Source: a virus
Lineage: Duplodnaviria; Heunggongvirae; Uroviricota; Caudoviricetes
DNA: 36,917 nucleotides
Reading direction: 5' to 3' (one strand)
IMG/VR virus record: IMGVR_UViG_2711768076_000013
The notes beneath the pieces are model-generated. The model had not been told where the DNA came from and searched no databases. It worked only from the letters and a program-made list of their open reading frames with translations. The translations under genes and the position numbers were made by a program. Positions 1,033 to 34,297 of this stretch are shown piece after piece. Each line of letters starts with the position of its first letter. The first letter of the stretch is position 1.

Positions 1033-1110
1033 AAAAAATGCCCTCCAGTGGAGAGCATTTTTACTGTATGTATAACCAGTGTCAATGTATGATGCTTGAG
1101 GTTACATACA

Positions 1111-1482
1111 TCATAAGTACCGATATGATTGCGGGGCCGTTATGTTATCACCTAATGAACTTAGATGAAGCGGTTGATCATAGATTTTTAGATTGCCAAT
1201 TTCTATAGCAAAGGCTTTTTCTTTGCTATGAAAATATGAGTCAAAAAATTGTTTGCTGATACCTGCGTATTGGCTTGTTTTTTCCCATACAATACTTGGC
1301 TTGTCTTCTATAACATCTGCAATGTCAAATTCAGCAACAACTTTACCGACAGGCATTGTTGAATAAATAACCACAGATTTTACATCCGGTTTTTTGAAAA
1401 TTCCTTTTCGGAATTCAAATTTCTTTGTTCCATTAAGGATTTTTTCTACATGCTCTGGGTTAATTGACAATAATACTTTCAT
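1111..1482 (-). CDS. ASCH-domain (PUA-like) protein, last gene of cargo cassette
   Basis: Start taken at MKVLLSINPEHVEKILNGTKKFEFRK (the ORF track extends to 1494); this N-terminus resembles the ASCH fold of E. coli YqfB as recalled. AT-rich. Overlaps the stop of the upstream gene, so likely translationally coupled. Confidence 0.5.
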   Translation of the reverse strand: MKVLLSINPEHVEKILNGTKKFEFRKGIFKKPDVKSVVIYSTMPVGKVVAEFDIADVIEDKPSIVWEKTSQYAGISKQFFDSYFHSKEKAFAIEIGNLKIYDQPLHLSSLGDNITAPQSYRYL

Positions 1483-2530
1483 TGACGCCACCAAGTTTAA
1501 TAATGCTATTAAACTGTTCGTTTGTTAACTTCATGATCCCCCAGTAAGCTCGCGGGGATAATCCTACTTCAGAAATAAGTTTAGCACGATTTAGTCTTTT
1601 GGGCAAAGCAAGGTTATATGTAAAGCTTATAATATATGGGTATTTTTTTGTTCTATAAAAACTTTTAAGCTCAGATTCTGTAAAAACAGAATATCTAGAA
1701 CAGTAATTTAGAAATTCTTTCTCTGTAACGAAAGAGTTTATATTTCTAACTTTTTCTACTACACATAAAGAAGTAGCAACAGAACGGTAATATGCAGGCC
1801 CTTGATTATCGGATGTTCGGTATATAACGATTATATCGTTTGGCTTCATTAATTCAACATCTGACATGCCACAAATATATACTTTTCTAATGCTATTTGC
1901 ATATGATACATCAGCAACAACGTCTGGTGACTCTGTAATTAATTTTGAGTCAGGGAATAAACGAGTATGAAATACGGGGTATATTGAAAGCAAGAATTTA
2001 TTTTCACTGCCTCTGTTATTAATAAATGGATAATCTGACAGTATATCGCCAGTAAGAGCATTACTATTCATTTCTTTTATTAGTACTCGCTCTACACCAT
2101 TTTGAGATTCTTTTACTCCAATATCTATAAAGCCATAGATTTTGAATAGTCTAATTAAGTAGTCATGTTTTTCAAAAACAGTCACATATATATTGTTAGC
2201 ATTATTATCTAGAGCGTGATCGAATATTTTTTTTAAAAATCGTTGACCACGAAGAGTTCCTTTTGGATTAAATTTAAATGTTCCAACTTTTAGATGAATA
2301 CCATCAGGAATATTTGGTTTTGTATCTTCAATGATACCCACTTCTGTTTTTAGATACAAAAAACCATCAATTTTATTTTGTTCATCATAAAGGACATATG
2401 CATAATCATTTGATTTACATTTAGAATGGAACCAATCAATAAACCCATGAGCATAATCGGATTTTAAAGAGTCAAAAAAAACATCAGAAAAATCTACTTG
2501 ATTAAAAGGTATGTATTTTAAGTTTTCCAT
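1460..2530 (-). CDS. GNAT-like acetyltransferase-fold protein with extra C-terminal domain (cargo)
   Basis: 356-aa ORF. The segment NIYVTVFEKHDYLIRLFKIYGFIDIG resembles GNAT motif B and GTLRGQRFLKKIF lies where motif A would be. Very AT-rich. Start codon 2 nt from the stop of the upstream gene. Confidence 0.45.
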   Translation of the reverse strand: MENLKYIPFNQVDFSDVFFDSLKSDYAHGFIDWFHSKCKSNDYAYVLYDEQNKIDGFLYLKTEVGIIEDTKPNIPDGIHLKVGTFKFNPKGTLRGQRFLKKIFDHALDNNANNIYVTVFEKHDYLIRLFKIYGFIDIGVKESQNGVERVLIKEMNSNALTGDILSDYPFINNRGSENKFLLSIYPVFHTRLFPDSKLITESPDVVADVSYANSIRKVYICGMSDVELMKPNDIIVIYRTSDNQGPAYYRSVATSLCVVEKVRNINSFVTEKEFLNYCSRYSVFTESELKSFYRTKKYPYIISFTYNLALPKRLNRAKLISEVGLSPRAYWGIMKLTNEQFNSIIKLGGVNESIIVN

Positions 2531-2532
2531 GT

Positions 2533-3315
2533 TTACAATCCTATTTTAAAATCACATGATAAGCAAATTGATTTAGTTTTAGATATGACGGCGAGTGTTT
2601 TCCCCGGAGTTTGACAATTAGTACAAACATTCCAATTTTTCGGTTTTCCATCAATCTTATATATGTTGGCTAAAATATCATCTAAAGGAAAAAATGTTTT
2701 CATCATGTCTATAATGCTTGCTGCATAGTTTTTCTTTGCCTCGACTAATTTTTGTTCAGGCATGTTTTTATCATTTATCAAGCAATGAACCAGGTTATTA
2801 AGAGGCTCTTGATATATCTCCTCTCGAAAAATTAGAAATGCACTTAAAAAGTCTTTACGTATTTCTTTATTATTACTTTTACCTAAGTGAATTACTTTAT
2901 TTCTTTCTTTGCGCAAAATATCATAAATTTCATTAAAGCGCGGTGAAAGATTTCGCCCACTGATACTTTGTGCTATTCTATGTAGCTCGGTTGCGTCTAA
3001 TGTTGAACATTCGAAAAATGATTTGTTTTTATAGCAGTCTTTTACTTCTTTTAAAAGTAAATAAACACTATGCTCAGCAATTATAGACTTTAGATATATT
3101 TCAGCAGAATTAAAGAGTATTACCAAGCCAGATTGAAAGAAACTCTCTTTTTCGGATATTAAGCGTTTCAGTCGTTGTTCTTCTGTTTCAGGTTGAGCTG
3201 GGGCTTGCAATAACTCAATGTCAGAATAAAAATGTAAGTAGAATGTTTTAATGAAAAACTCAAGGTTCCTTTTGGCATAAAGAAGCATCTCTTCATTGTT
3301 AGGAAGGTCTGTCAT
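2533..3315 (-). CDS. Hypothetical protein with HEPN-like R-N-x3-H motif and C-terminal CxxC..CxxC zinc ribbon (cargo)
   Basis: 260-aa ORF. Contains ERNKVIH (Rx4H with N after R, as in HEPN RNases) and a C-terminal CTNCQ...CLSCD. AT-rich. Its ATG directly abuts the cI stop (TAAATG on the coding strand). Confidence 0.4.
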   Translation of the reverse strand: MTDLPNNEEMLLYAKRNLEFFIKTFYLHFYSDIELLQAPAQPETEEQRLKRLISEKESFFQSGLVILFNSAEIYLKSIIAEHSVYLLLKEVKDCYKNKSFFECSTLDATELHRIAQSISGRNLSPRFNEIYDILRKERNKVIHLGKSNNKEIRKDFLSAFLIFREEIYQEPLNNLVHCLINDKNMPEQKLVEAKKNYAASIIDMMKTFFPLDDILANIYKIDGKPKNWNVCTNCQTPGKTLAVISKTKSICLSCDFKIGL

Positions 3316-4272
3316 TTAAATATCCTTATATATACCAAAACATTTTGCTATTACATTAATATCCGCTAATAGACATTCAAAAGTTGTACTTTCATTAGAT
3401 ACTTTTACTTTTGCAATTGGAATTCTGGTTAGATCTCTAACACTAAATTTTCCTTCGATTTCAACTAACCATTTTCCATCGGTTACTTCATCAAATGCTT
3501 TGTCTGCAAGATATACATTTCCTTCATCTACTATAGATATGGGGTTTTTCACCTTGCTGGGTAACATGGTTTTATCAAAAGGGAGATAATTTGTATCAAA
3601 CAACATACCATTTATAACTTTTTTCCGTGTGATAGCAATAATATCGCTCTTAGCGTCTTCAAAGACAGGACCATTACCGGTTGTTAGCCACATTAATGAA
3701 GCTCCGGTTTCAAGTGCGCACTGGATGATCCAATCAGCTGGAAAGGTATCTCTCATGTAACGATTGGCTAATGTGCTTTTTGAAACACCAATGTGATCCG
3801 CTAGAGCTTGCCTTGTCTTAAATCCATAGGCGATAACTATTCGCTCGATTGCCGCTTTTCCTCCTTGATTAACCTCAATGAGGCTCTCGTTCTTTCGGTG
3901 AGTATTGTTCTCATTTGGGGATTTTGTGTCTAAAGTGAGAGAATGAATCTCCTTACCATCTTTATGGTGGTTCTGTTCTGTATTATGTGTGACAGCCTCT
4001 ACTGTGTTATCGGTACCAAATGCCAACCATTCAACCGACACGCCAGTTTCCATGCTGCAGATTATGACCCAGTCGGCAGGGAAGGTATCACGAGCATATC
4101 TGTTCGCCATTGTGCTTTGGGATATCCCTAAGTGGTTACAGAATGCTTGACGTGAAGTGAAGCCATAAGCTTTCAAAATTCGGTCAATGACCTGTTGCCC
4201 TCCACGATTCTGCATGATTACAGTTTTCATTGCATCATCAACATGGCGAAATGTGATTTTGTGTGTTGACAT
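3316..4272 (-). CDS. cI: CI-type immunity repressor with two tandem N-terminal HTH domains
   Basis: 318 aa. Two diverged copies of a phage CI-repressor HTH (ILKAYGFTSRQAFCNHLGISQSTMANRYARDTFPADW and IVIAYGFKTRQALADHIGVSKSTLANRYMRDTFPADW), then a C-terminal domain resembling phage 186 CI as recalled. Divergent from the apl-like gene. Confidence 0.8.
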   Translation of the reverse strand: MSTHKITFRHVDDAMKTVIMQNRGGQQVIDRILKAYGFTSRQAFCNHLGISQSTMANRYARDTFPADWVIICSMETGVSVEWLAFGTDNTVEAVTHNTEQNHHKDGKEIHSLTLDTKSPNENNTHRKNESLIEVNQGGKAAIERIVIAYGFKTRQALADHIGVSKSTLANRYMRDTFPADWIIQCALETGASLMWLTTGNGPVFEDAKSDIIAITRKKVINGMLFDTNYLPFDKTMLPSKVKNPISIVDEGNVYLADKAFDEVTDGKWLVEIEGKFSVRDLTRIPIAKVKVSNESTTFECLLADINVIAKCFGIYKDI

Positions 4273-6165: not shown

Positions 6166-7019
6166 GCACCATCCTGAAATGGGCGGGAAATAAAACCGCC
6201 ATAATGTCCGAACTGAAAAAGCATCTTCCTGCTGGCCCGCGACTGGTTGAACCTTTCGCGGGTTCCTGTGCAGTGATGATGGAGACGGATTACCCCAGCT
6301 ATCTTGTTGCGGATATTAATCCTGATTTAATCAACCTCTATAAAAAGGTTGCTGCTGATTGTGAGGCGTTTATATCTCGTGCCAGAGCTTTATTTGAGGA
6401 CGCAAACAGGGAGGTGACTTATTACAACATAAGGCAGGAGTTTAATTACTCAACTGAAATTACTGATTTCATGAAAGCGGTATATTTCCTGTATCTCAAT
6501 CGTCACGGTTACCGTGGGTTATGTCGTTATAACAAGAGCGGGCATTTCAACATTCCATACGGTAATTATAAAAATCCGTATTTCCCTGAAAAAGAAATTC
6601 GCGCATTTGCAGAGAAAGCCCAGCGAGCAACGTTTATCTGCGCCAGCTTTGATGAAACGCTGGCGATGCTGCAGGTGGGGGATGTGGTGTATTGCGATCC
6701 GCCTTATGACGGTACGTTTTCCGGTTATCACACTGACGGCTTCACTGAAGATGACCAGTATCACCTGGCATCCGTTCTTGAACATCGGTCATCAGAAGGA
6801 CATCCGGTCATTGTTTCTAATAGTGACACATCCCTGATCCGTTCGCTGTATCGCAATTTCACTCACCACTACATCAAGGCAAAACGCAGCATTGGCGTGT
6901 CAGCTGGCGAGAGTAAATCTGCAACAGAAATCATCGCTGTTTCTGGGGCGCGCTGCTGGGTGGGATTTGATCCTTCGCGTGGCGTGGATAGTTCTGCCGT
7001 GTACGGAGTGCGTGCATGA
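6162..7019 (+). CDS. dam: DNA adenine methyltransferase (Dam-type)
   Basis: N-terminus ILKWAGNK plus the catalytic DPPY motif ([10 protein letters not shown]). Start ATG 6162 has GGAGG upstream and overlaps the previous stop (ATGA); its own stop overlaps the gene A start. Confidence 0.85.
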
Positions 7020-9430
7020 GCCATGCTGATATGAACAACTGCAGCGGCTTTAACGAGGCCGCCGCAGCATTCTCATGGAACAGCCCGAAAAAGGCTATTA
7101 ACCCTTATCTGGACCCGGCGGAAGTTGCGCCGGTTTCTGCGCTTTCAAACCTGATCACTCTGTACGCTGTCGATAACGAGCAGGAACAACTGCGTCGCGA
7201 GGCACTGAGTGATCAGGTCTGGGAGCGTTATTTCTTTAATGAATCCCGTGATCCTGTCCACCGCGAAATGGAGCAGGATAAGCTCATTAGCCGGGCAAAG
7301 CTGGCGCATGAGCAGCAGCGTTTTAATCCAGATATGGTCATTCTGGCGGACGTCAATGCCCAGCCTTCCCATATCAGCAAGCCGCTGATGCAACGTATTG
7401 AATACTTCAGCAGCCTGGGCAGGCCAAAGGCTTATTCCCGCTATTTGCGTGAGACGATTAAGCCATGTCTGGAACGACTGGAGCATGTACGCGACTGTCA
7501 GCTATCCACTTCTTTTCGCTTTATGGCAAGCCATGAAGGGCTGGACGGCCTGCTGATCCTGCCTGAAATGAGTCAGGATCAGGTGAAGCGCCTGTCTACC
7601 CTTGTCGCCGCGCATATGAGCATGTGCCTTGATGCAGCTTGTGGTGATTTGTATGCCACCGATGACGTTAAGCCAGAAGAAATCCGCAAGACATGGGAAA
7701 AGGTGGCAGCGGAAACCCTGCGTCTGGATGTTATCCCGCCTGCGTTTGAGCAACTCCGTCGGAAAAGAAACCGCCGTAAACCCGTGCCTTATGAACTCAT
7801 TCCGGGTTCGCTGGCTCGTATGTTATGCGCCGACTGGTGGTATCGGAAATTATGGAAGATGCGTTGCGAATGGCGGGAAGAGCAGTTGCGTGCTGTTTGC
7901 CTGGTCAGCAAAAAAGCATCTCCCTATGTCAGCTATGAAGCCGTGATGCATAAACGTGAGCAGCGCCGTAAGTCGCTGGAGTTTTTCCGTTCTCATGAAC
8001 TGGTGAACGAAGACGGCGACACGCTGGATATGGAAGACGTGGTAAACGCCAGCAGCAGCAACCCTGCGCATCGCCGCAATGAGATGATGGCCTGTGTTAA
8101 AGGTCTGGAGCTTATCGCGGAAATGCGCGGTGACTGCGCCGTTTTCTACACCATCACCTGTCCGTCACGTTTCCATTCCACGCTAAATAACGGCAGGCCC
8201 AACCCGACCTGGACAAATGCGACGGTAAGACAAAGCAGTGATTATCTGGTCGGTATGTTTGCTGCATTTCGTAAGGCGATGCACAAAGCCGGATTGCGCT
8301 GGTATGGCGTGCGGGTGGCTGAGCCGCATCATGACGGTACAGTTCACTGGCACCTGTTGTGTTTTATGCGCAAAAAAGATCGCCGCGCCATTACTGCTTT
8401 GTTGCGTAAGTTTGCCATTCGTGAAGACCGCGAGGAGCTGGGTAATAACACGGGACCACGCTTTAAGTCTGAGCTGATAAACCCGCGCAAAGGTACGCCA
8501 ACAAGCTACATCGCGAAATACATCAGTAAGAACATTGACGGGCGTGGTCTGGCTGGCGAGATCAGCAAGGAAACGGGTAAATCCCTGCGTGATAACGCTG
8601 AATACGTTAATGCCTGGGCGTCTCTGCATCGTGTTCAGCAATTCCGCTTCTTTGGCATTCCGGGGCGTCAGGCTTACCGTGAACTGCGATTGCTGGCTGG
8701 TCAGGCGGCAAGGCAACAGGGGGACAAAAAAGCAGGTGCGCCGGTACTGGATAACCCGCGTCTTGATGCCATCCTGGCCGCTGCTGATGCTGGTTGTTTT
8801 GCCACCTACATCATGAAGCAGGGCGGCGTACTGGTTCCCCGCAAATATCACCTCATCAGAACCGCTTATGAAATCAACGAAGAGCCGACCGCCTATGGCG
8901 ATCACGGCATTCGTATTTATGGCATCTGGTCACCCATTGCAGAGGGCAAGATCTGCACTCATGCGGTGAAGTGGAAAATGGTTCGTAAGGCCGTTGACAT
9001 TCAGGAGGCGGCAGCCGACCAGGGCGCTTGCGCCCCTTGGACTCGTGGCAATAACTGTCCCCTTGCTGAAAATTTGAACCAACAGGAGAAAGATAAATCA
9101 GCTGATGGGGACCCCAGAACGGACATTACCAGCATGGATGACAAGGAGTTGAACGATTACCTGCACAGTATGAGCAAAAAAGAGCGCCGGGAACTGGCAG
9201 CAAGGTTACGCCTGGTGAAACCGAAACGGCGTAAAGACTACAAACAGCGAATTACAGACCATCAGCGACTGCAGCTCGTGTATGAGCTGAAGTCCAGAGG
9301 ATTTGATGGCAGCGAGAAAGAGGTCGATTTACTCCTTCGCGGAGGCAGTATTCCGTCAGGAGCAGGCCTGCGTATCTTCTATCGGAACCAGCGTTTGCAG
9401 GAAGATGATCAGTGGCGGAACCTGTATTAA
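7016..9430 (+). CDS. A: Replication initiation endonuclease gpA (rolling-circle, HUH family)
   Basis: 804 aa; HUH motif in [11 protein letters not shown] and a tyrosine pair in YIAKYISK; size and position match P2/186 gene A. Confidence 0.9.
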
Positions 9431-9522
9431 TTACGCGGGTTAACAATTCGTGCTCTTAATAATACCAGGCATATCAGGCTGATGAACGTAAAAAATCGTT
9501 TTACATCAGTAAGATTATTATA

Positions 9523-9542
9523 TACTGTAAATATAAACAGTG
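9523..9542 (+). promoter_or_regulatory. LexA operator (SOS box)
   Basis: TACTGTAAATATAAACAGTG is a perfect CTGT-N8-ACAG with AT-rich spacer, about 40 bp upstream of the small ORF at 9584. Confidence 0.75.
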
Positions 9543-9583
9543 GTTATGCATACAGCATTGCGTGTGGTGTCATAGGAGGAAAG

Positions 9584-9772
9584 ATGCAGGACTATTTTTT
9601 GGAGTCTTTGAAGCTCCAGCGCATTGATTTTTTTCTTAAGCTTGTAGCGGCTAGTGAGTGTAGTGATGAAGAGAAGGGGCTGGCTCTGCAGTGGGTTTCT
9701 GAATTGACTGATGAACTCATGGCAAAAATCAGAACCCACGAATACAACCGCTCAATGGATGTCATCAGCTGA
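9584..9772 (+). CDS. Small SOS-regulated protein (possible Tum-like antirepressor module component)
   Basis: 62-aa ORF with GGAGG before ATG 9584, directly downstream of the SOS box and upstream of the DinI-like gene. Confidence 0.4.
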   Translation: MQDYFLESLKLQRIDFFLKLVAASECSDEEKGLALQWVSELTDELMAKIRTHEYNRSMDVIS

Positions 9773-9782
9773 GGTGACTTTT

Positions 9783-10016
9783 ATGCGCATTGAAATAATG
9801 ATCGATAAAGAGCAGAAGATTAGCCAGTCTACCCTGGACGCCCTTGAATCCGAGCTTTACCGCAATCTGCGCCCCCTGTATCCCAAAACGGTAATTCGCA
9901 TTCGCAAAGGTAGCTCTAACGGTGTGGAACTAACCGGACTGCAACTGGACGAAGAAAGAAAACAAGTGATGAAAATTATGCAGAAGGTGTGGGAAGACGA
10001 CAGCTGGCTGCATTAA
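9783..10016 (+). CDS. DinI-like protein
   Basis: MRIEIMIDKEQKISQSTLDALESELYRNLRPLYPKTVIRIRKGSSNGVELTGL...WEDDSWL resembles E. coli DinI as recalled (MRIEV..., C-terminal W-E-x-x-D-W). Confidence 0.75.
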   Translation: MRIEIMIDKEQKISQSTLDALESELYRNLRPLYPKTVIRIRKGSSNGVELTGLQLDEERKQVMKIMQKVWEDDSWLH

Positions 10017-10150
10017 GAAACGTTGCTGGCGTCTGAACTTGCTTCTGGCGTCAGCAAGGTTGAACAACGAGCCCTTGCGAGGCGTTAGCTCTGTAGTGCA
10101 TGTCTATGCCGCATGAGATCGCATGATCGTTTGAGGATCGTTTTTGCTAA

Positions 10151-10176
10151 GGCCCGCCAGAACTGGCGGGCTTTTG
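10151..10176 (+). terminator. Rho-independent terminator after DinI-like gene
   Basis: GGCCCGCC-agaact-GGCGGGC followed by TTTTG. Confidence 0.65.
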
Positions 10177-10220
10177 CGTAGATCATGCAGGTGCATGAAA
10201 ACCACTACATAAAGCGGGCA

Positions 10221-10239
10221 GGCGTGGCGGGGATACGAG
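10221..10239. other. Candidate cos cohesive-end sequence
   Basis: GGCGTGGCGGGGATACGAG; the first 13 nt match the 186/P2 cohesive-end sequence as recalled (GGCGTGGCGGGGAAAGCAT). Location between the replication region and the packaging genes is as expected. Confidence 0.4.
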
Positions 10240-10270
10240 CGCGCGCTCATTACTTTTATAATTCTAGGGT

Positions 10271-10276
10271 TATAAT
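10271..10276 (+). promoter_or_regulatory. Putative -10 element for the KAP NTPase gene
   Basis: Perfect TATAAT 29 nt upstream of ATG 10305, followed by AGGAG at 10293..10297. Confidence 0.35.
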
Positions 10277-10304
10277 ACGGGGCTGTCTTTCTAGGAGAAA
10301 ACAC

Positions 10305-11957
10305 ATGTCCTTAGAGTTTATCAAAGAACAGTTGTCAGATTTTATCTCATCTACAGAACCAGAAGTAATGGCTATACAGGGTGAATGGGGAATTGGTAAA
10401 ACCTATACTTGGAATACGTTCCTAAAAGATAATAAAGATAAGGTTGCATTTAATAGATATAGTTATGTCTCTCTTTTTGGTATAAATTCACTAGATTCTT
10501 TAAAGTATTCTATTTTTGAGAATGCAATTACAAAGGAATATATTGGAAATAAACCTGATTTGGAGACAGCAACAACAAACGCAAGTGGACTTTTTGAATC
10601 ATTTTCTCGAAAAGCAGCAGGTTTGTTAAAAGAAGTTCCTGTTGTAAAAAACTTCTCTACGACACTTGAAGCAATGTCATTTCTGACCGTTTCTAAAATG
10701 ATTGTAGTAATAGATGACTTAGAAAGGCGTGGCAAAAATTTAGATGTTAAAGATGTTTTAGGGCTAGTATCTCTATTAAAAGAGCAGAAGGATTGTAAGG
10801 TGGTTCTATTGCTTAACAATGGCACAGCTAGTATGGAGGATTATTCTACTTATAAAGAAAAGGTCATTGATAGAGATATCACTTACAATCCAACACCAGA
10901 AGAATGCGCAGATATAGCCTATAAAGGTGATTCTCATGTTTATAACTTGTTAAGTAAATATTCCATTTCTTTAGGTATCAAGAATATTCGAATCTTAAAA
11001 AAGATAGAACGTTTTTTCGTGTCCTTAATACCAAATATTATAGGTGATGTTGAGACAATTTCAAATGAAGTTGCGCATTCATTAACTCTGTATTGTTGGA
11101 GCCATTACGGATTTTCTCCAGAGGGAGATGTGCCATCACTAGAATATATTAGGGGAGTGAGGAATATATATACTTATAATGACAAGGAAGAAGGCCATGA
11201 GAAAATCTGGCTTAATACCTTGCTTAAATATGGATATAGAAAAACGAATGATCTTGATGAGGTTCTTATTGATATGGTTAGATATGGCTATCTTGATAAG
11301 AGCAGTTTCCAAAGACAAATAAGCCTAAGGAATGAGGAGATTACGCGTGATAATAAACGAGGTTCCTTATCTGAGGCATGGCAGTTCTTTCATAATTCAT
11401 TTGATGACAATCAAAATCAGGTTGTTGACAAGCTATATCAAGCGGTGGTTGATGGGATGAAGTATGTGACTCCAAGTGATTTAGATAATGTTGTCGGACT
11501 ATATAGGGATTTCGGAGAGAATGCTAAGGCGAGTGAATTGATTGAACAGTTTATTAATTATGGTAACGATGCTCTAAAGGAATATGTTCAATCTATTTAT
11601 GTGAATGTTCATCCCGTAAGAGATACTGAGTTGTTGTCAAAAATTCAAGCCTATTCTAAGATTATAAATATTGATGGTTCAATATATGATGTTCTTAAGA
11701 AATTATCAGGTCAGAATGGTTGGTCTGATAGACATGAGGAAATATTGGATGCTGCTTCAGTAGATGACTACTATCAATTATTTAAAAATGTCATTCTTGA
11801 TGGTGGTGATTCAATAATAGCTACGGCGCTTAAATTCGGAAATTTTAGTAATGGTTCTGATAGAATGAATCGTATAGGGAAAAAGGCAAGGGATGCCTTG
11901 ATAAGAATTGGAGATGAATCGGCGATTAATAAAATGCGTGTAAGGCGATTTTTGTGA
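10305..11957 (+). CDS. KAP-family P-loop NTPase (candidate anti-phage or abortive-infection protein)
   Basis: Walker A in QGEWGIGKTYTW and Walker B-like MIVVIDDLERRG, the KAP-family signatures. Strongly AT-rich compared with flanking phage genes. Sits at the P2 tin/old hotspot position between gene A and the portal gene. Confidence 0.7.
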   Translation: MSLEFIKEQLSDFISSTEPEVMAIQGEWGIGKTYTWNTFLKDNKDKVAFNRYSYVSLFGINSLDSLKYSIFENAITKEYIGNKPDLETATTNASGLFESFSRKAAGLLKEVPVVKNFSTTLEAMSFLTVSKMIVVIDDLERRGKNLDVKDVLGLVSLLKEQKDCKVVLLLNNGTASMEDYSTYKEKVIDRDITYNPTPEECADIAYKGDSHVYNLLSKYSISLGIKNIRILKKIERFFVSLIPNIIGDVETISNEVAHSLTLYCWSHYGFSPEGDVPSLEYIRGVRNIYTYNDKEEGHEKIWLNTLLKYGYRKTNDLDEVLIDMVRYGYLDKSSFQRQISLRNEEITRDNKRGSLSEAWQFFHNSFDDNQNQVVDKLYQAVVDGMKYVTPSDLDNVVGLYRDFGENAKASELIEQFINYGNDALKEYVQSIYVNVHPVRDTELLSKIQAYSKIINIDGSIYDVLKKLSGQNGWSDRHEEILDAASVDDYYQLFKNVILDGGDSIIATALKFGNFSNGSDRMNRIGKKARDALIRIGDESAINKMRVRRFL

Positions 11958-34062: not shown

Positions 34063-34142
34063 CGCTGTCGCCATTTTGTCGCCATCGTTAAAAAACAGTG
34101 CTTCTAACATCATGATTTTAAACAGCATAAATTTCAGGCAAC

Positions 34143-34185
34143 AAAAAACCCATCAACCTTGAACCGAAATGGCGGGGTTGATGGG
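34143..34185 (-). terminator. Putative rho-independent terminator (minus-strand orientation) at prophage/host junction
   Basis: CCCATCAACC ... GGTTGATGGG stem with a T-run on the minus strand (A-run 34143..34148 on plus), about 110 bp downstream of the ybjL stop. Confidence 0.4.
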
Positions 34186-34297
34186 CTCCACAAAATGGGG
34201 ACATCAAAGAAAAGCAGTGGCACTAATTAAGACTGATGCCCTGCGGAAAAGTTCTGCGGTTGTGCAAAAAAATTTCATTTTCAGGGCAACTTCAGTT

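What the first reader, a model, noticed from the sequence alone, without database searches (positions are those of the whole stretch)
9523..10016. SOS-box-controlled two-gene module (small protein plus DinI-like) downstream of gene A
A perfect LexA operator (CTGT-N8-ACAG) precedes a 62-aa ORF and a DinI-like gene, ending in a strong terminator at 10151..10176. In phage 186 an SOS-controlled antirepressor (Tum) drives prophage induction from a similar location, so the small ORF may be a compact Tum-like antirepressor that links induction to DNA damage.
Basis: partly seen in the sequence, partly recalled or inferred. Interest (0 to 1): 0.5.

Follow-up and report, generated by a model that had tools for sequence, protein, structure and literature searches.

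The report
Split Tum SOS induction operon
This is the DNA-damage switch of a Fels-2/186-type prophage: a LexA-repressed promoter drives a 62-residue antirepressor (TumA) and a DinI-like protein (TumB). A 98% identical copy of the small gene has already been shown experimentally to be required for prophage induction, so the finding is correct but not new.

Summary

**What is there**
- The window is a 186/Fels-2-like (Peduoviridae) prophage.
- Directly after replication gene A, and about 45 nt before the cos site, sit a TTTACA-17 nt-TACTGT promoter, a LexA box (9523-9542), a 62-aa ORF (9584-9772), a DinI-like gene (9783-10016) and a GC hairpin followed by TTTT (10152-10175).

**Why it is the split form of 186 tum**
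- The DinI-like protein is 41% identical to the C-terminal half of 186 Tum.
- The 62-aa protein matches the N-terminal half only at profile level.
- PSP3 annotates the same gene pair as tumA/tumB.
- The Fels-2 proteins are 98% and 100% identical to those here.

**Experimental support from a relative**
- In E. coli HS prophage DuoHS, the published Δtum primers match this window exactly. They delete only the 62-aa ORF.
- That mutant and a lexA(Ind-) strain both fail to lyse after mitomycin C.

**Conservation**
- The LexA box is kept in 31 of 33 species loci.
- The ORF is under strong purifying selection (median dN/dS 0.07).

**New details**
- The operator is a colicin-like double SOS box.
- Near-identical TumA proteins are paired with CI repressors that are only 25-59% identical.
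- About a third of the species loci lack the dinI gene.

The parts
9500..9505 (+). -35 hexamer TTTACA of the p95-like SOS promoter, preceded by an A-tract (9490-9495)
   Evidence: It lies 17 nt upstream of TACTGT. TTTACA, or a hexamer matching TTGACA at 5 of 6 positions or better, is kept at this spacing in 26 of 33 loci. The position corresponds to the annotated 186 p95 -35. The generic promoter scan missed it.
9523..9528 (+). -10 hexamer TACTGT, identical to the annotated -10 of 186 p95 and forming the first 6 nt of LexA box 1
   Evidence: In the 186 record the -10 is annotated at the first 6 nt of the LexA site. The same arrangement is present here. Promoter activity is inferred, not tested.
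9523..9542 (.). LexA (SOS) box 1, TACTGTAAATATAAACAGTG; 17 of 20 match the consensus TACTGTATATATATACAGTA
   Evidence: Conserved in 31 of 33 species loci, in 80 of 80 186-type loci and in 79 of 80 PSP3-type tum loci.
9537..9556 (.). LexA box 2, CAGTGGTTATGCATACAGCA: a weaker left half overlapping box 1
   Evidence: It has the same geometry as the ColE1 cea double SOS operator and is identical to it at 29 of 37 nt. The right-half ACAG is kept in the same register in 23 of 33 loci. LexA binding was not tested.
9574..9579 (+). Ribosome-binding site AGGAGG for tumA
   Evidence: Read from the sequence. Conserved as AGGAGG(G/A)AA in the related loci.
9584..9772 (+). tumA-like gene: a 62-aa antirepressor, predicted as a two-helix hairpin
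   Evidence: - Family and homology: phrog_698 at 3.6e-38; profile-level link to the 186 Tum N-terminal half.
- Close relatives: 98% identical to Fels-2 STM2728 and to E. coli HS ECHS_RS04495, the gene deleted as 'tum'.
- Selection and structure: median dN/dS 0.073; AlphaFold2 model with helices 2-23 and 28-61, pLDDT 89.5.
9783..10016 (+). tumB-like gene: a 77-aa DinI-family protein, with its GAGG ribosome-binding site overlapping the tumA stop codon
   Evidence: Pfam DinI at 6.6e-23. It is 41% identical to 186 Tum residues 71-145, 100% identical to Fels-2 STM2726.1 and 78% identical to PSP3 TumB.
10017..10150 (+). Conserved non-coding right-end (cos-proximal) segment
   Evidence: It aligns with the phage 186 sequence between orf97 and the genome end. 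As RNA it folds better than shuffles, z = -3.1. No Rfam family matches it.
10152..10175 (+). GC-rich hairpin GCCCGCCAG/CTGGCGGGC followed by TTTT; the likely terminator of the operon
   Evidence: It aligns with a conserved GCCAGAGCTGGC palindrome in the cos flank of 186 and PSP3. It may therefore also, or instead, be a packaging-site element. The terminator scan did not list it.
10221..10239 (.). cos cohesive-end sequence GGCGTGGCGGGGATACGAG; marks the right end of the mature phage genome
   Evidence: The annotated 186 cos is GGCGTGGCGGGGAAAGCAT. The sequence to its left aligns with the last 70 nt of 186.
3316..4272 (-). cI: a 186-type immunity repressor and the presumed target of TumA; here it has two tandem N-terminal HTH domains
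   Evidence: Pfam finds Phage_CI_repr twice (9.5e-58) and Phage_CI_C once (6.7e-31), with no S24 peptidase domain. It is homologous to 186 CI and to E. coli HS CI.

Best explanation
This is the SOS operon of a 186/Fels-2-type prophage in its split form, tumA plus tumB.

**In the lysogen**
- LexA dimers occupy a double operator that covers the -10 hexamer (TACTGT) and the start region of a TTTACA-17 nt-TACTGT promoter.
- The operon is therefore silent.

**After DNA damage**
- RecA-stimulated self-cleavage of LexA frees the promoter.
- A short transcript is made, and it ends at the hairpin just before cos.

**The two products**
- TumA is a 62-aa two-helix protein. It binds the 186-type CI repressor, which has no self-cleavage domain, and stops it from binding its operators. 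The early lytic promoter then fires and the prophage is induced.
- TumB is a DinI-family protein. It most likely acts on RecA filaments to tune the strength or duration of the SOS signal. It is accessory, because about a third of related loci lack it.

**Basis of each step**
- Shown here from sequence: the anatomy, the homology and the conservation.
- Shown by others in close relatives: the 62-aa gene and cleavable LexA are both required for induction by mitomycin C (E. coli HS DuoHS). Tum inhibits CI DNA binding (phage 186).
- Inferred: LexA binding to both boxes here, direct TumA-CI contact in this phage, and the role of TumB.
For: **Position**
- The module lies after gene A (Pfam Phage_GPA, 6.5e-128).
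- It is the last unit before cos.

**Operator and promoter**
-.
- The layout is the same as the annotated 186 p95 promoter and LexA site.
- The LexA box is conserved in 31 of 33, 80 of 80 and 79 of 80 loci of the three tum types.

**Homology**
- TumB is 41% identical to the C-terminal half of 186 Tum.
- TumA links to the N-terminal half of Tum through PHROG profiles and hhalign in register.
- PSP3 annotates tumA and tumB.
- The Fels-2 proteins are 98% and 100% identical.

**Literature**
- The split tum of Fels-2 and PSP3 is described, with the upstream gene as the antirepressor (PMC3121763).
- DuoHS Δtum and lexA(Ind-) strains are not inducible (PMC12055606).
- The DuoHS deletion primers match the window exactly and delete only ORF62.
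- In 186, Tum is the anti-CI factor expressed from the LexA-regulated p95 promoter (PMC7708051).

**Other support**
- CI is 186-type and has no S24 peptidase domain.
- Purifying selection on ORF62, median dN/dS 0.073.
- tumA is present without dinI in about 13 of 33 loci.
Against: - Pairwise BLASTP finds no similarity between ORF62 and 186 Tum or PSP3 TumA.
- The profile links are modest. hhalign probability is 38% against the Tum N-terminal family and 0.9% against the PSP3 TumA family.
- No Pfam, NCBIfam, PADLOC or PDB match exists for ORF62.
- Nothing was tested in this particular prophage, whose CI (318 aa, double N-terminal domain) differs from the CI of the tested relatives.
- The passages I read of the DuoHS paper do not mention complementation of Δtum, so a polar effect on tumB cannot be fully excluded.
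- The generic promoter and terminator scans did not flag the promoter or the hairpin.
Confidence: 0.9

Rival explanations
1. The DinI-like protein (TumB) is the actual inducer, for example by acting on RecA or CI, and the 62-aa ORF is only an accessory or leader peptide.
For: - PHROG and RefSeq name full-length 186 Tum a 'RecA filament binding protein DinI'.
- In 186 the two parts are one polypeptide.
- The DuoHS deletion could reduce tumB translation through loss of coupling, because the tumB ribosome-binding site overlaps the tumA stop codon.
Against: - The DuoHS deletion keeps the tumB ribosome-binding site and gene intact, yet induction is abolished.
- About 13 of 33 species loci, and 31 of 80 PSP3-type loci, have the small gene and LexA box but no DinI gene.
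- In PSP3 the upstream gene is reported to carry the antirepressor activity.
- The 186 record describes the truncated, DinI-only Tum products as modulators, not inducers.
Confidence: 0.03
2. The operon is an SOS-regulated accessory ('moron') module that modulates the host SOS response for the benefit of the lysogen and has no role in prophage induction in this phage.
For: - DinI homologues modulate RecA.
- The module sits next to a cargo hot spot: the KAP NTPase gene lies just beyond cos.
- This prophage's CI differs from the CI of the tested relatives.
Against: - The orthologue is required for induction in DuoHS.
- CI has no self-cleavage domain, so another SOS link is needed.
- The module is conserved at the same core position next to gene A in all three tum types.
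Confidence: 0.04
3. The CTGT-N8-ACAG match is a chance palindrome in AT-rich intergenic DNA, and the two genes are not LexA-regulated.
For: The 16-nt pattern alone is expected 0.51 times per window, and 40 of 100 shuffles contain one.
Against: - The full 20-mer matches the consensus at 17 of 20 positions.
- The core is conserved in 31 of 33 species loci while the spacer varies, and in 159 of 160 loci of the other tum types.
- It overlaps the -10 hexamer exactly as in 186 p95.
- A lexA(Ind-) host blocks induction of DuoHS, whose 20-nt LexA box 1 is identical.
Confidence: 0.02

Closest known systems
Coliphage 186 SOS operon (p95-tum-orf97) and the Tum antirepressor
   Same: - Position after gene A at the right genome end.
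- A LexA box overlapping a TACTGT -10 hexamer.
- A DinI-like part that is 41% identical.
- An N-terminal part that is homologous at profile level.
- A 186-type CI, apl and cII switch.
   Different: - 186 Tum is one 146-aa fusion protein with several internal starts. Here a stop codon and a 10-nt gap separate two genes.
- 186 has a single LexA box. Here there are two overlapping boxes.
- 186 has orf97 downstream, which is absent here.
- The antirepressor parts are only about 20% identical.
PSP3 tumA/tumB
   Same: - The same split architecture: LexA box, small gene (60 aa), then a DinI-like gene.
- TumB is 78% identical.
- The record states 'UV induction of prophage' for tumA.
   Different: - PSP3 TumA belongs to a different PHROG family (phrog_1993, against phrog_698 here).
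- It is only about 22% identical, with no BLASTP hit.
- PSP3 has a single LexA box.
Fels-2 STM2728/STM2726.1 and E. coli HS prophage DuoHS 'tum' (ECHS_RS04495)/ECHS_RS04500
   Same: - Essentially the same module: TumA 98% identical, TumB 100% identical, and an identical 20-nt LexA box 1.
- DuoHS tum and cleavable LexA are required for induction by mitomycin C.
- A lexA null mutation is lethal in Fels-2 lysogens.
   Different: - Both relatives carry an orf97-like gene after dinI, which this window lacks.
- Their CI repressors (210 and 189 aa) are only 25-28% identical overall to the 318-aa double-HTH CI here.
- RefSeq still labels the small gene 'hypothetical protein'.
Gifsy/Fels-1 LexA-controlled antirepressors (GfoA, GftA) with dinI homologues
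   Same: An operon repressed by LexA that encodes a small antirepressor plus a DinI homologue. The antirepressor inactivates a non-cleavable repressor by binding it.
   Different: These are lambdoid phages with the gene order reversed (dinI first). I did not test for sequence relationship, and the repressors belong to a different family.
Double overlapping SOS boxes of colicin operons (ColE1 cea)
   Same: Two boxes in the same register. The 37-nt operator is identical to that of ColE1 at 29 of 37 positions. In colicin operons, such operators bind two LexA dimers and prevent untimely expression (PMC2994835).
   Different: The context is a prophage antirepressor, not a bacteriocin. Binding of two LexA dimers here is inferred only. 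Box 2 is absent from the Erwiniaceae-type loci and from 186 and PSP3.

Membership tests
186-type SOS (tum) operon, split tumA/tumB form | Located directly downstream of replication gene A, as the last transcription unit before cos | tested here: met
   Gene A lies at 7016-9430 (Pfam Phage_GPA, 6.5e-128). cos lies at 10221-10239, and the flank aligns with the right end of 186.
186-type SOS (tum) operon, split tumA/tumB form | A LexA operator overlapping the -10 hexamer of the promoter | tested here: met
   The box at 9523-9542 begins with TACTGT, which is the annotated -10 of 186 p95. TTTACA lies 17 nt upstream. This is met at sequence level only.
186-type SOS (tum) operon, split tumA/tumB form | LexA binds the operator and represses transcription; derepression follows DNA damage | not testable with these tools
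   Published for 186. For DuoHS, whose 20-nt LexA box 1 is identical, a lexA(Ind-) host blocks induction.
186-type SOS (tum) operon, split tumA/tumB form | The upstream product is homologous to the N-terminal (antirepressor) half of Tum | tested here: met
   Met at profile level only.
- 186 Tum residues 7-44 hit phrog_698 at 6.7e-6.
- ORF62 hits phrog_8554 at 2.4e-8 and phrog_1993 at 2.2e-3.
- hhalign gives E = 3.3e-4 in register, probability 38%.
- Pairwise BLASTP is negative.
186-type SOS (tum) operon, split tumA/tumB form | The downstream product, or the C-terminal half, is DinI-like | tested here: met
   Pfam DinI at 6.6e-23. It is 41% identical to Tum residues 71-145 and 78% identical to PSP3 TumB.
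186-type SOS (tum) operon, split tumA/tumB form | The cognate immunity repressor is a 186-type CI without a RecA-stimulated self-cleavage domain | tested here: met
   Phage_CI_repr twice plus Phage_CI_C, with no Peptidase_S24 domain. It is 41-48% identical to the 186 CI N-terminal domain.
186-type SOS (tum) operon, split tumA/tumB form | The small protein binds CI and is required for SOS induction of the prophage | not testable with these tools
   Requirement is shown for the 98% identical orthologue in E. coli HS. CI binding is shown for 186 Tum only.
DinI family (Pfam PF06183) | Sequence match above the curated threshold over the full domain | tested here: met
   81.3 bits against a cut-off of 24.2, covering profile positions 1-63 of 63. 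The NCBIfam DinI equivalog scores only 42.7 bits against a cut-off of 111, so this is a paralogue and not host DinI itself.
DinI family (Pfam PF06183) | Binds RecA filaments and modulates co-protease activity | not testable with these tools
   Inferred from family membership. The 186 record notes that truncated Tum 'modulates SOS induction'.
Colicin-type double SOS operator | Two LexA boxes in overlapping register (16-mers sharing one base) | tested here: met
   The window sequence TACTGTAAATATAAACAGTGGTTATGCATACAGCATT matches the ColE1 sequence TGCTGTATATAAAACCAGTGGTTATATGTACAGTATT at 29 of 37 positions. The box 2 ACAG is conserved in register in 23 of 33 loci.
Colicin-type double SOS operator | Occupied by two LexA dimers, giving tight repression and late induction | not testable with these tools
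   Known for colicin operons. Inferred here.

The most novel reading that the evidence does not exclude
The Fels-2-type TumA may be a generalist antirepressor.

**Observation**
- TumA proteins that are 97-100% identical are paired with CI repressors that are only 25-59% identical. One of these is the tandem double-HTH CI in this window.
- Two of these pairings (DuoHS and Fels-2) are reported to respond to SOS.

**Proposed reading**
- TumA may dock on the one block that all these CIs share: the HTH and C-terminal part of the N-terminal DNA-binding domain (SKST.A.RY.RD.FPA.W.IQCALETG.SL.WL.TG.G).
- One prophage's SOS signal could then cross-induce heteroimmune relatives in polylysogens.
- The colicin-like double LexA operator would set a high damage threshold for that commitment.
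- The duplicated N-terminal domain of this CI could change how much TumA is needed.
Probability: 0.3. Interest if true: 0.45.

Novelty: already known. Interest (0 to 1): 0.15.

Why it matters
**Value as annotation**
- The small gene is labelled 'hypothetical protein', or in some records wrongly 'levan regulatory protein', in RefSeq and in most phage records.
- The module occurs in 1281 of 5426 complete E. coli genomes and in many Klebsiella, Salmonella and other enterobacterial prophages.
- Naming it tumA would let genome annotators predict which P2/186-like prophages are inducible by SOS. That matters for phage-mediated gene transfer under antibiotic stress.

**Modest leads that can be tested**
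- The double SOS operator.
- The lack of co-variation between TumA and CI.

Tried and rejected
**Searches that found nothing for ORF62**
- Pairwise BLASTP against 186 Tum and against PSP3 TumA gave no alignment. Only profile methods link them.
- Pfam, NCBIfam, PADLOC and a PDB sequence search gave no hits.

**Scans of the region**
- An Rfam gathering-threshold scan found nothing in 9431-10265. I dropped the idea that the conserved 10017-10150 segment is an sRNA once it aligned with the cos-proximal right end of 186.
- The generic promoter and terminator scan detected neither the promoter nor the hairpin. I relied on homology with the annotated 186 p95 promoter and on folding instead.

**Readings considered and rejected**
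- The database name 'levan regulatory protein' has no support from any family model.
- The 96-aa extended ORF from ATG 9482 starts upstream of the promoter and LexA box and lacks a ribosome-binding site.

**Things that did not work out**
- Bunny et al. 2002 (PMC151935) is not held in the library. I cite its content only through Lemire et al. 2011.
- Correlating TumA divergence with CI divergence gave no signal: r = 0.25 for the N-terminal domain and -0.24 for the C-terminal domain, n = 30. I therefore rejected a model of a specific, co-evolving repressor-antirepressor pair for this family.
- I did not compute a heterology index because the matrix was not available.
Full report
**1. What the window is**

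The window is a 186/Fels-2-type prophage of the Peduoviridae. Its left part reads as follows:
- integrase, 1-1032 on the minus strand
- three cargo ORFs
- a CI repressor with Pfam Phage_CI_repr and Phage_CI_C domains, 3316-4272 on the minus strand
- an apl/cox-like gene
- a cII gene (Pfam Phage_CP76)
- several small early genes and a Dam-like methylase
- replication gene A, 7016-9430 (Phage_GPA, 6.5e-128)

The finding lies directly after gene A. The closest complete genomes are E. coli. The 835-nt region is 100% identical in several pig isolates and is present in 1281 of 5426 complete E. coli genomes. It is also in 60 phage records, mostly Klebsiella, Escherichia and Salmonella.

**2. Checking the observation**

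*LexA box.*
- CTGT-N8-ACAG occurs once, at 9525-9540.
- That pattern alone is weak evidence, because 0.51 are expected per window.
- The extended palindrome TACTGTAAATATAAACAGTG (9523-9542) matches the 20-nt consensus at 17 positions.
- TACTGT-N8-ACAGT with up to one mismatch gives 3 matches against 0.33 expected, and none of 100 shuffles reaches 3.

*Genes.*
- The 62-aa ORF (9584-9772) has an AGGAGG ribosome-binding site.
- The 77-aa DinI-like ORF (9783-10016) follows after 10 nt.
- The DinI assignment is firm: Pfam DinI at 6.6e-23, well above the cut-off.

*Hairpin.*
- The hairpin GCCCGCCAG/CTGGCGGGC followed by TTTT lies at 10152-10175.
- It is the most stable element when 10017-10185 is folded as RNA.

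*Conservation.* I collected 33 loci from different species that encode a relative of the 62-aa protein.
- 31 of them have a LexA box with at most 1 core mismatch 40-97 nt upstream of the start codon.
- One of the two exceptions has only 53 nt of upstream sequence.
- The spacer differs between loci while the CTGT/ACAG core is kept.
- A TTTACA hexamer lies exactly 17 nt upstream of the TACTGT that begins the box. It, or a hexamer matching TTGACA at 5 of 6 positions or better, is there in 26 of 33 loci.
- The ORF is under strong purifying selection: median dN/dS 0.073 over 375 pairs at median dS 1.05. It is therefore a real protein-coding gene.

**3. What it is**

*The 186 model.*
- In the phage 186 record, the p95 promoter has its -10 hexamer (TACTGT) as the first six bases of the LexA site.
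- It drives tum, a 146-aa protein 'repressed by LexA; inhibits CI DNA binding'.
- Shorter in-frame products starting further in, the shortest of them at a GTG, consist only of the DinI-like C-terminal part and 'modulate SOS induction'.

*Match of the two halves.*
- The window's DinI-like protein aligns with Tum residues 71-145 at 41% identity, E = 3e-24.
- The 62-aa protein shows no BLASTP similarity to Tum.
- Profile methods do connect them:
  - ORF62 belongs to phrog_698 (3.6e-38). It also hits phrog_8554 (2.4e-8) and phrog_1993 (2.2e-3).
  - The first 70 residues of 186 Tum hit phrog_1993 (2e-23), phrog_8554 (3.3e-12) and phrog_698 (6.7e-6, residues 7-44 to profile positions 7-44).
  - hhalign of alignments I built from 27 and 51 unique sequences aligns columns 4-43 with 4-43 at E = 3.3e-4. 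The probability is only 38%, and both alignments are shallow.
- A Cys in the turn and an A-L pair that follows it are invariant across the three types, with the Ser/Ala-Glu/Asp that follows conserved in character.

*The split form is already on record.*
- The PSP3 record annotates tumA (60 aa; 'similar to 5' end 186 tum; UV induction of prophage') followed by tumB (DinI-like). PSP3 TumB is 78% identical to the protein here.
- Lemire et al. [quoted passage not shown] - The two Fels-2 proteins, STM2728 and STM2726.1, are 98.4% and 100% identical to those in the window.

*A direct experiment on a near-identical copy.*
- The Phollow study (Nat Microbiol 2025) made an in-frame Δtum in E. coli HS prophage DuoHS, locus tag ECHS_RS04495.
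- Its junction primers read ...GTGGTGTCATAGGAGGAAAGATG|TGA and ATG|TGAGGTGACTTTTATGCGCATTG.
- Both halves match the window exactly, at 9564-9586 and 9770-9792.
- The deletion therefore fuses the ATG and the TGA of the 62-aa ORF and leaves the DinI-like gene in place.
- ECHS_RS04495 is a 62-aa 'hypothetical protein' that is 98% identical to ORF62, and the adjacent DinI-like protein is 100% identical.
- Δtum and lexA(Ind-) strains both fail to lyse or form virions after mitomycin C.

**4. How it most likely works**

- *Repression (inferred from sequence and from 186).* LexA occupies the operator and blocks the TTTACA-17 nt-TACTGT promoter.
- *Derepression.* DNA damage leads to LexA self-cleavage and a burst of TumA and TumB. 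The need for cleavable LexA is shown for DuoHS.
- *Action of TumA.* The AlphaFold2 model is a two-helix hairpin with helices 2-23 and 28-61 and pLDDT 89.5. TumA inactivates CI by binding it. This is shown for 186 Tum and inferred here.
- *Why an antirepressor is needed.* This CI has no S24 self-cleavage domain, so an antirepressor is the only evident link to SOS.
- *TumB.* As a DinI-family protein it probably modulates RecA filaments. It is dispensable for the core function. About 13 of 33 species loci, and 31 of 80 PSP3-type loci, have the LexA box and the small gene but no DinI gene. In contrast, 78 of 80 186-type loci are fused.

**5.

*(a) The operator is double.*
- Box 1 (9523-9542) overlaps a second, weaker box (9537-9556, CAGTGGTTATGCATACAGCA).
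- The 37-nt unit is identical to the double SOS operator upstream of the ColE1 colicin gene at 29 of 37 positions, in the same register.
- The ACAG of box 2 is kept in register in 23 of 33 loci.
- It is missing from the Erwiniaceae-type loci and from 186 and PSP3.
- A higher threshold or a delay for lytic commitment is a reasonable reading but is untested.

*(b) The operon is the last unit before cos.*
- Window 10017-10220 aligns with the 186 sequence between orf97 and the genome end.
- Window 10221-10239 (GGCGTGGCGGGGATACGAG) corresponds to the annotated 186 cohesive end GGCGTGGCGGGGAAAGCAT.
- The orf97 gene found in 186, Fels-2 and DuoHS is absent here.
- The 'terminator' hairpin coincides with a palindrome that is conserved in the cos flank of 186 and PSP3. 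It may therefore also be a packaging-site element.

*(c) TumA does not co-vary with CI.*
- TumA is 97-100% identical in the window, DuoHS, Fels-2, Cartapus and Klebsiella phage Kp4845-2.
- Their CI proteins are only 25-59% identical overall.
- Across 30 loci there is no correlation between TumA divergence and CI divergence.
- The only CI block shared by all five is the HTH and C-terminal part of the N-terminal domain.
- This suggests, but does not show, that TumA docks on that block and could act across immunity types.

**6. Comparison with known systems and novelty**

- The module meets every sequence-level defining feature of the 186-type SOS operon in its split tumA/tumB form (see the membership table).
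- It is nearly identical to the Fels-2 and DuoHS modules, for which SOS dependence is published.
- It is therefore already known.
- What remains is an annotation gap, because RefSeq calls the gene 'hypothetical protein', and two modest leads: the double operator and the generalist antirepressor.

**7. Verdict**

- Observation: confirmed.
- Interpretation: supported.
- Novelty: already known.
- Interest: low, 0.15.
- The most novel reading not excluded is a generalist TumA that targets the conserved CI N-terminal domain, with cross-induction between prophages. I give it a probability of about 0.3 and moderate interest if true.

Noticed in passing
window 9537-9556 (with 9523-9542): The LexA operator is double and overlapping. 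It has the same register as the ColE1 cea double SOS operator and is identical to it at 29 of 37 nt. The right half of box 2 is conserved in 23 of 33 related loci but is absent from 186, PSP3 and the Erwiniaceae-type loci.
   Followed up: partly
window 3316-4272 (-): The CI repressor is 318 aa with two tandem Phage_CI_repr HTH domains, 56% identical to each other, plus one Phage_CI_C domain. 186, Fels-2 and DuoHS CI have one HTH domain. The same gene is in 28 complete E. coli genomes, and versions 52-63% identical are in Klebsiella phages, so it is an established lineage and not an assembly artefact.
   Followed up: partly
window 9584-9772 compared with 3316-4272; loci L005, L202, L203, L205: TumA proteins that are 97-100% identical are paired with CI repressors that are only 25-59% identical. 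Across 30 loci, TumA divergence and CI divergence do not correlate. The only block shared by all the CIs is the HTH-containing part of the N-terminal domain.
   Followed up: partly
window 10221-10239: This is the cos cohesive-end sequence GGCGTGGCGGGGATACGAG; the 186 equivalent is GGCGTGGCGGGGAAAGCAT. The SOS operon is therefore the last unit of the mature genome, and homology to related phages stops about 8 nt beyond the cohesive-end sequence, at about 10247.
   Followed up: yes
window 10266-11957 (+): A 563-aa KAP-family P-loop NTPase (Pfam KAP_NTPase 4.1e-7; phrog_4740 6e-125; PADLOC candidate PDC-S49 3.7e-27) sits between cos and the portal gene. This is a variable cargo slot that holds other genes in Fels-2 and DuoHS. 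Similar KAP genes follow cos in the Pantoea loci L030 and L031.
   Followed up: partly
window 1111-2530 (-) and 2533-3315 (-): Two cargo genes between int and cI match the PADLOC candidate defence pair PDC-M11B (4.7e-48) and PDC-M11A (2.8e-130). A third ORF of 260 aa has only weak DUF3644-like similarity.
   Followed up: no
window 1062-1081: A second good LexA-like box, TACTGTATGTATAACCAGTG, lies 30-50 nt upstream of the int start codon, next to a hairpin followed by a T-run. The identical box is present upstream of int in E. coli HS (L005:6335) and in L006:1135. This may indicate SOS control of int, or it may be coincidence.
   Followed up: partly
window 34140-34218 (-): A full-length RybB sRNA gene (Rfam, 105 bits) lies at the right end of the prophage. 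In E. coli HS the same prophage sits between rcdA and ybjL. The DuoHS deletion primer that starts 77 bp downstream of ogr reads AACAAAAAACCCATCAACCTTGAACCGAAATG, which looks to me like the reverse complement of the rybB 3' end; I judged that from memory and did not check it against the window. The attachment site may therefore overlap the rybB 3' end.
   Followed up: partly
loci L011, L015, L021, L025, L029-L035, L038: About a third of the species loci have the LexA box and tumA but no dinI gene, with variable cargo directly downstream. In L021 the next gene encodes a UmuD-like protein that begins MGFPSPAQDY.
   Followed up: partly
window 9482-9772 (+): Many database entries give this gene 84-106 aa, starting from upstream ATG or other codons. 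The 96-aa reading starts before the promoter and LexA box and is almost certainly a gene-caller artefact.
   Followed up: yes
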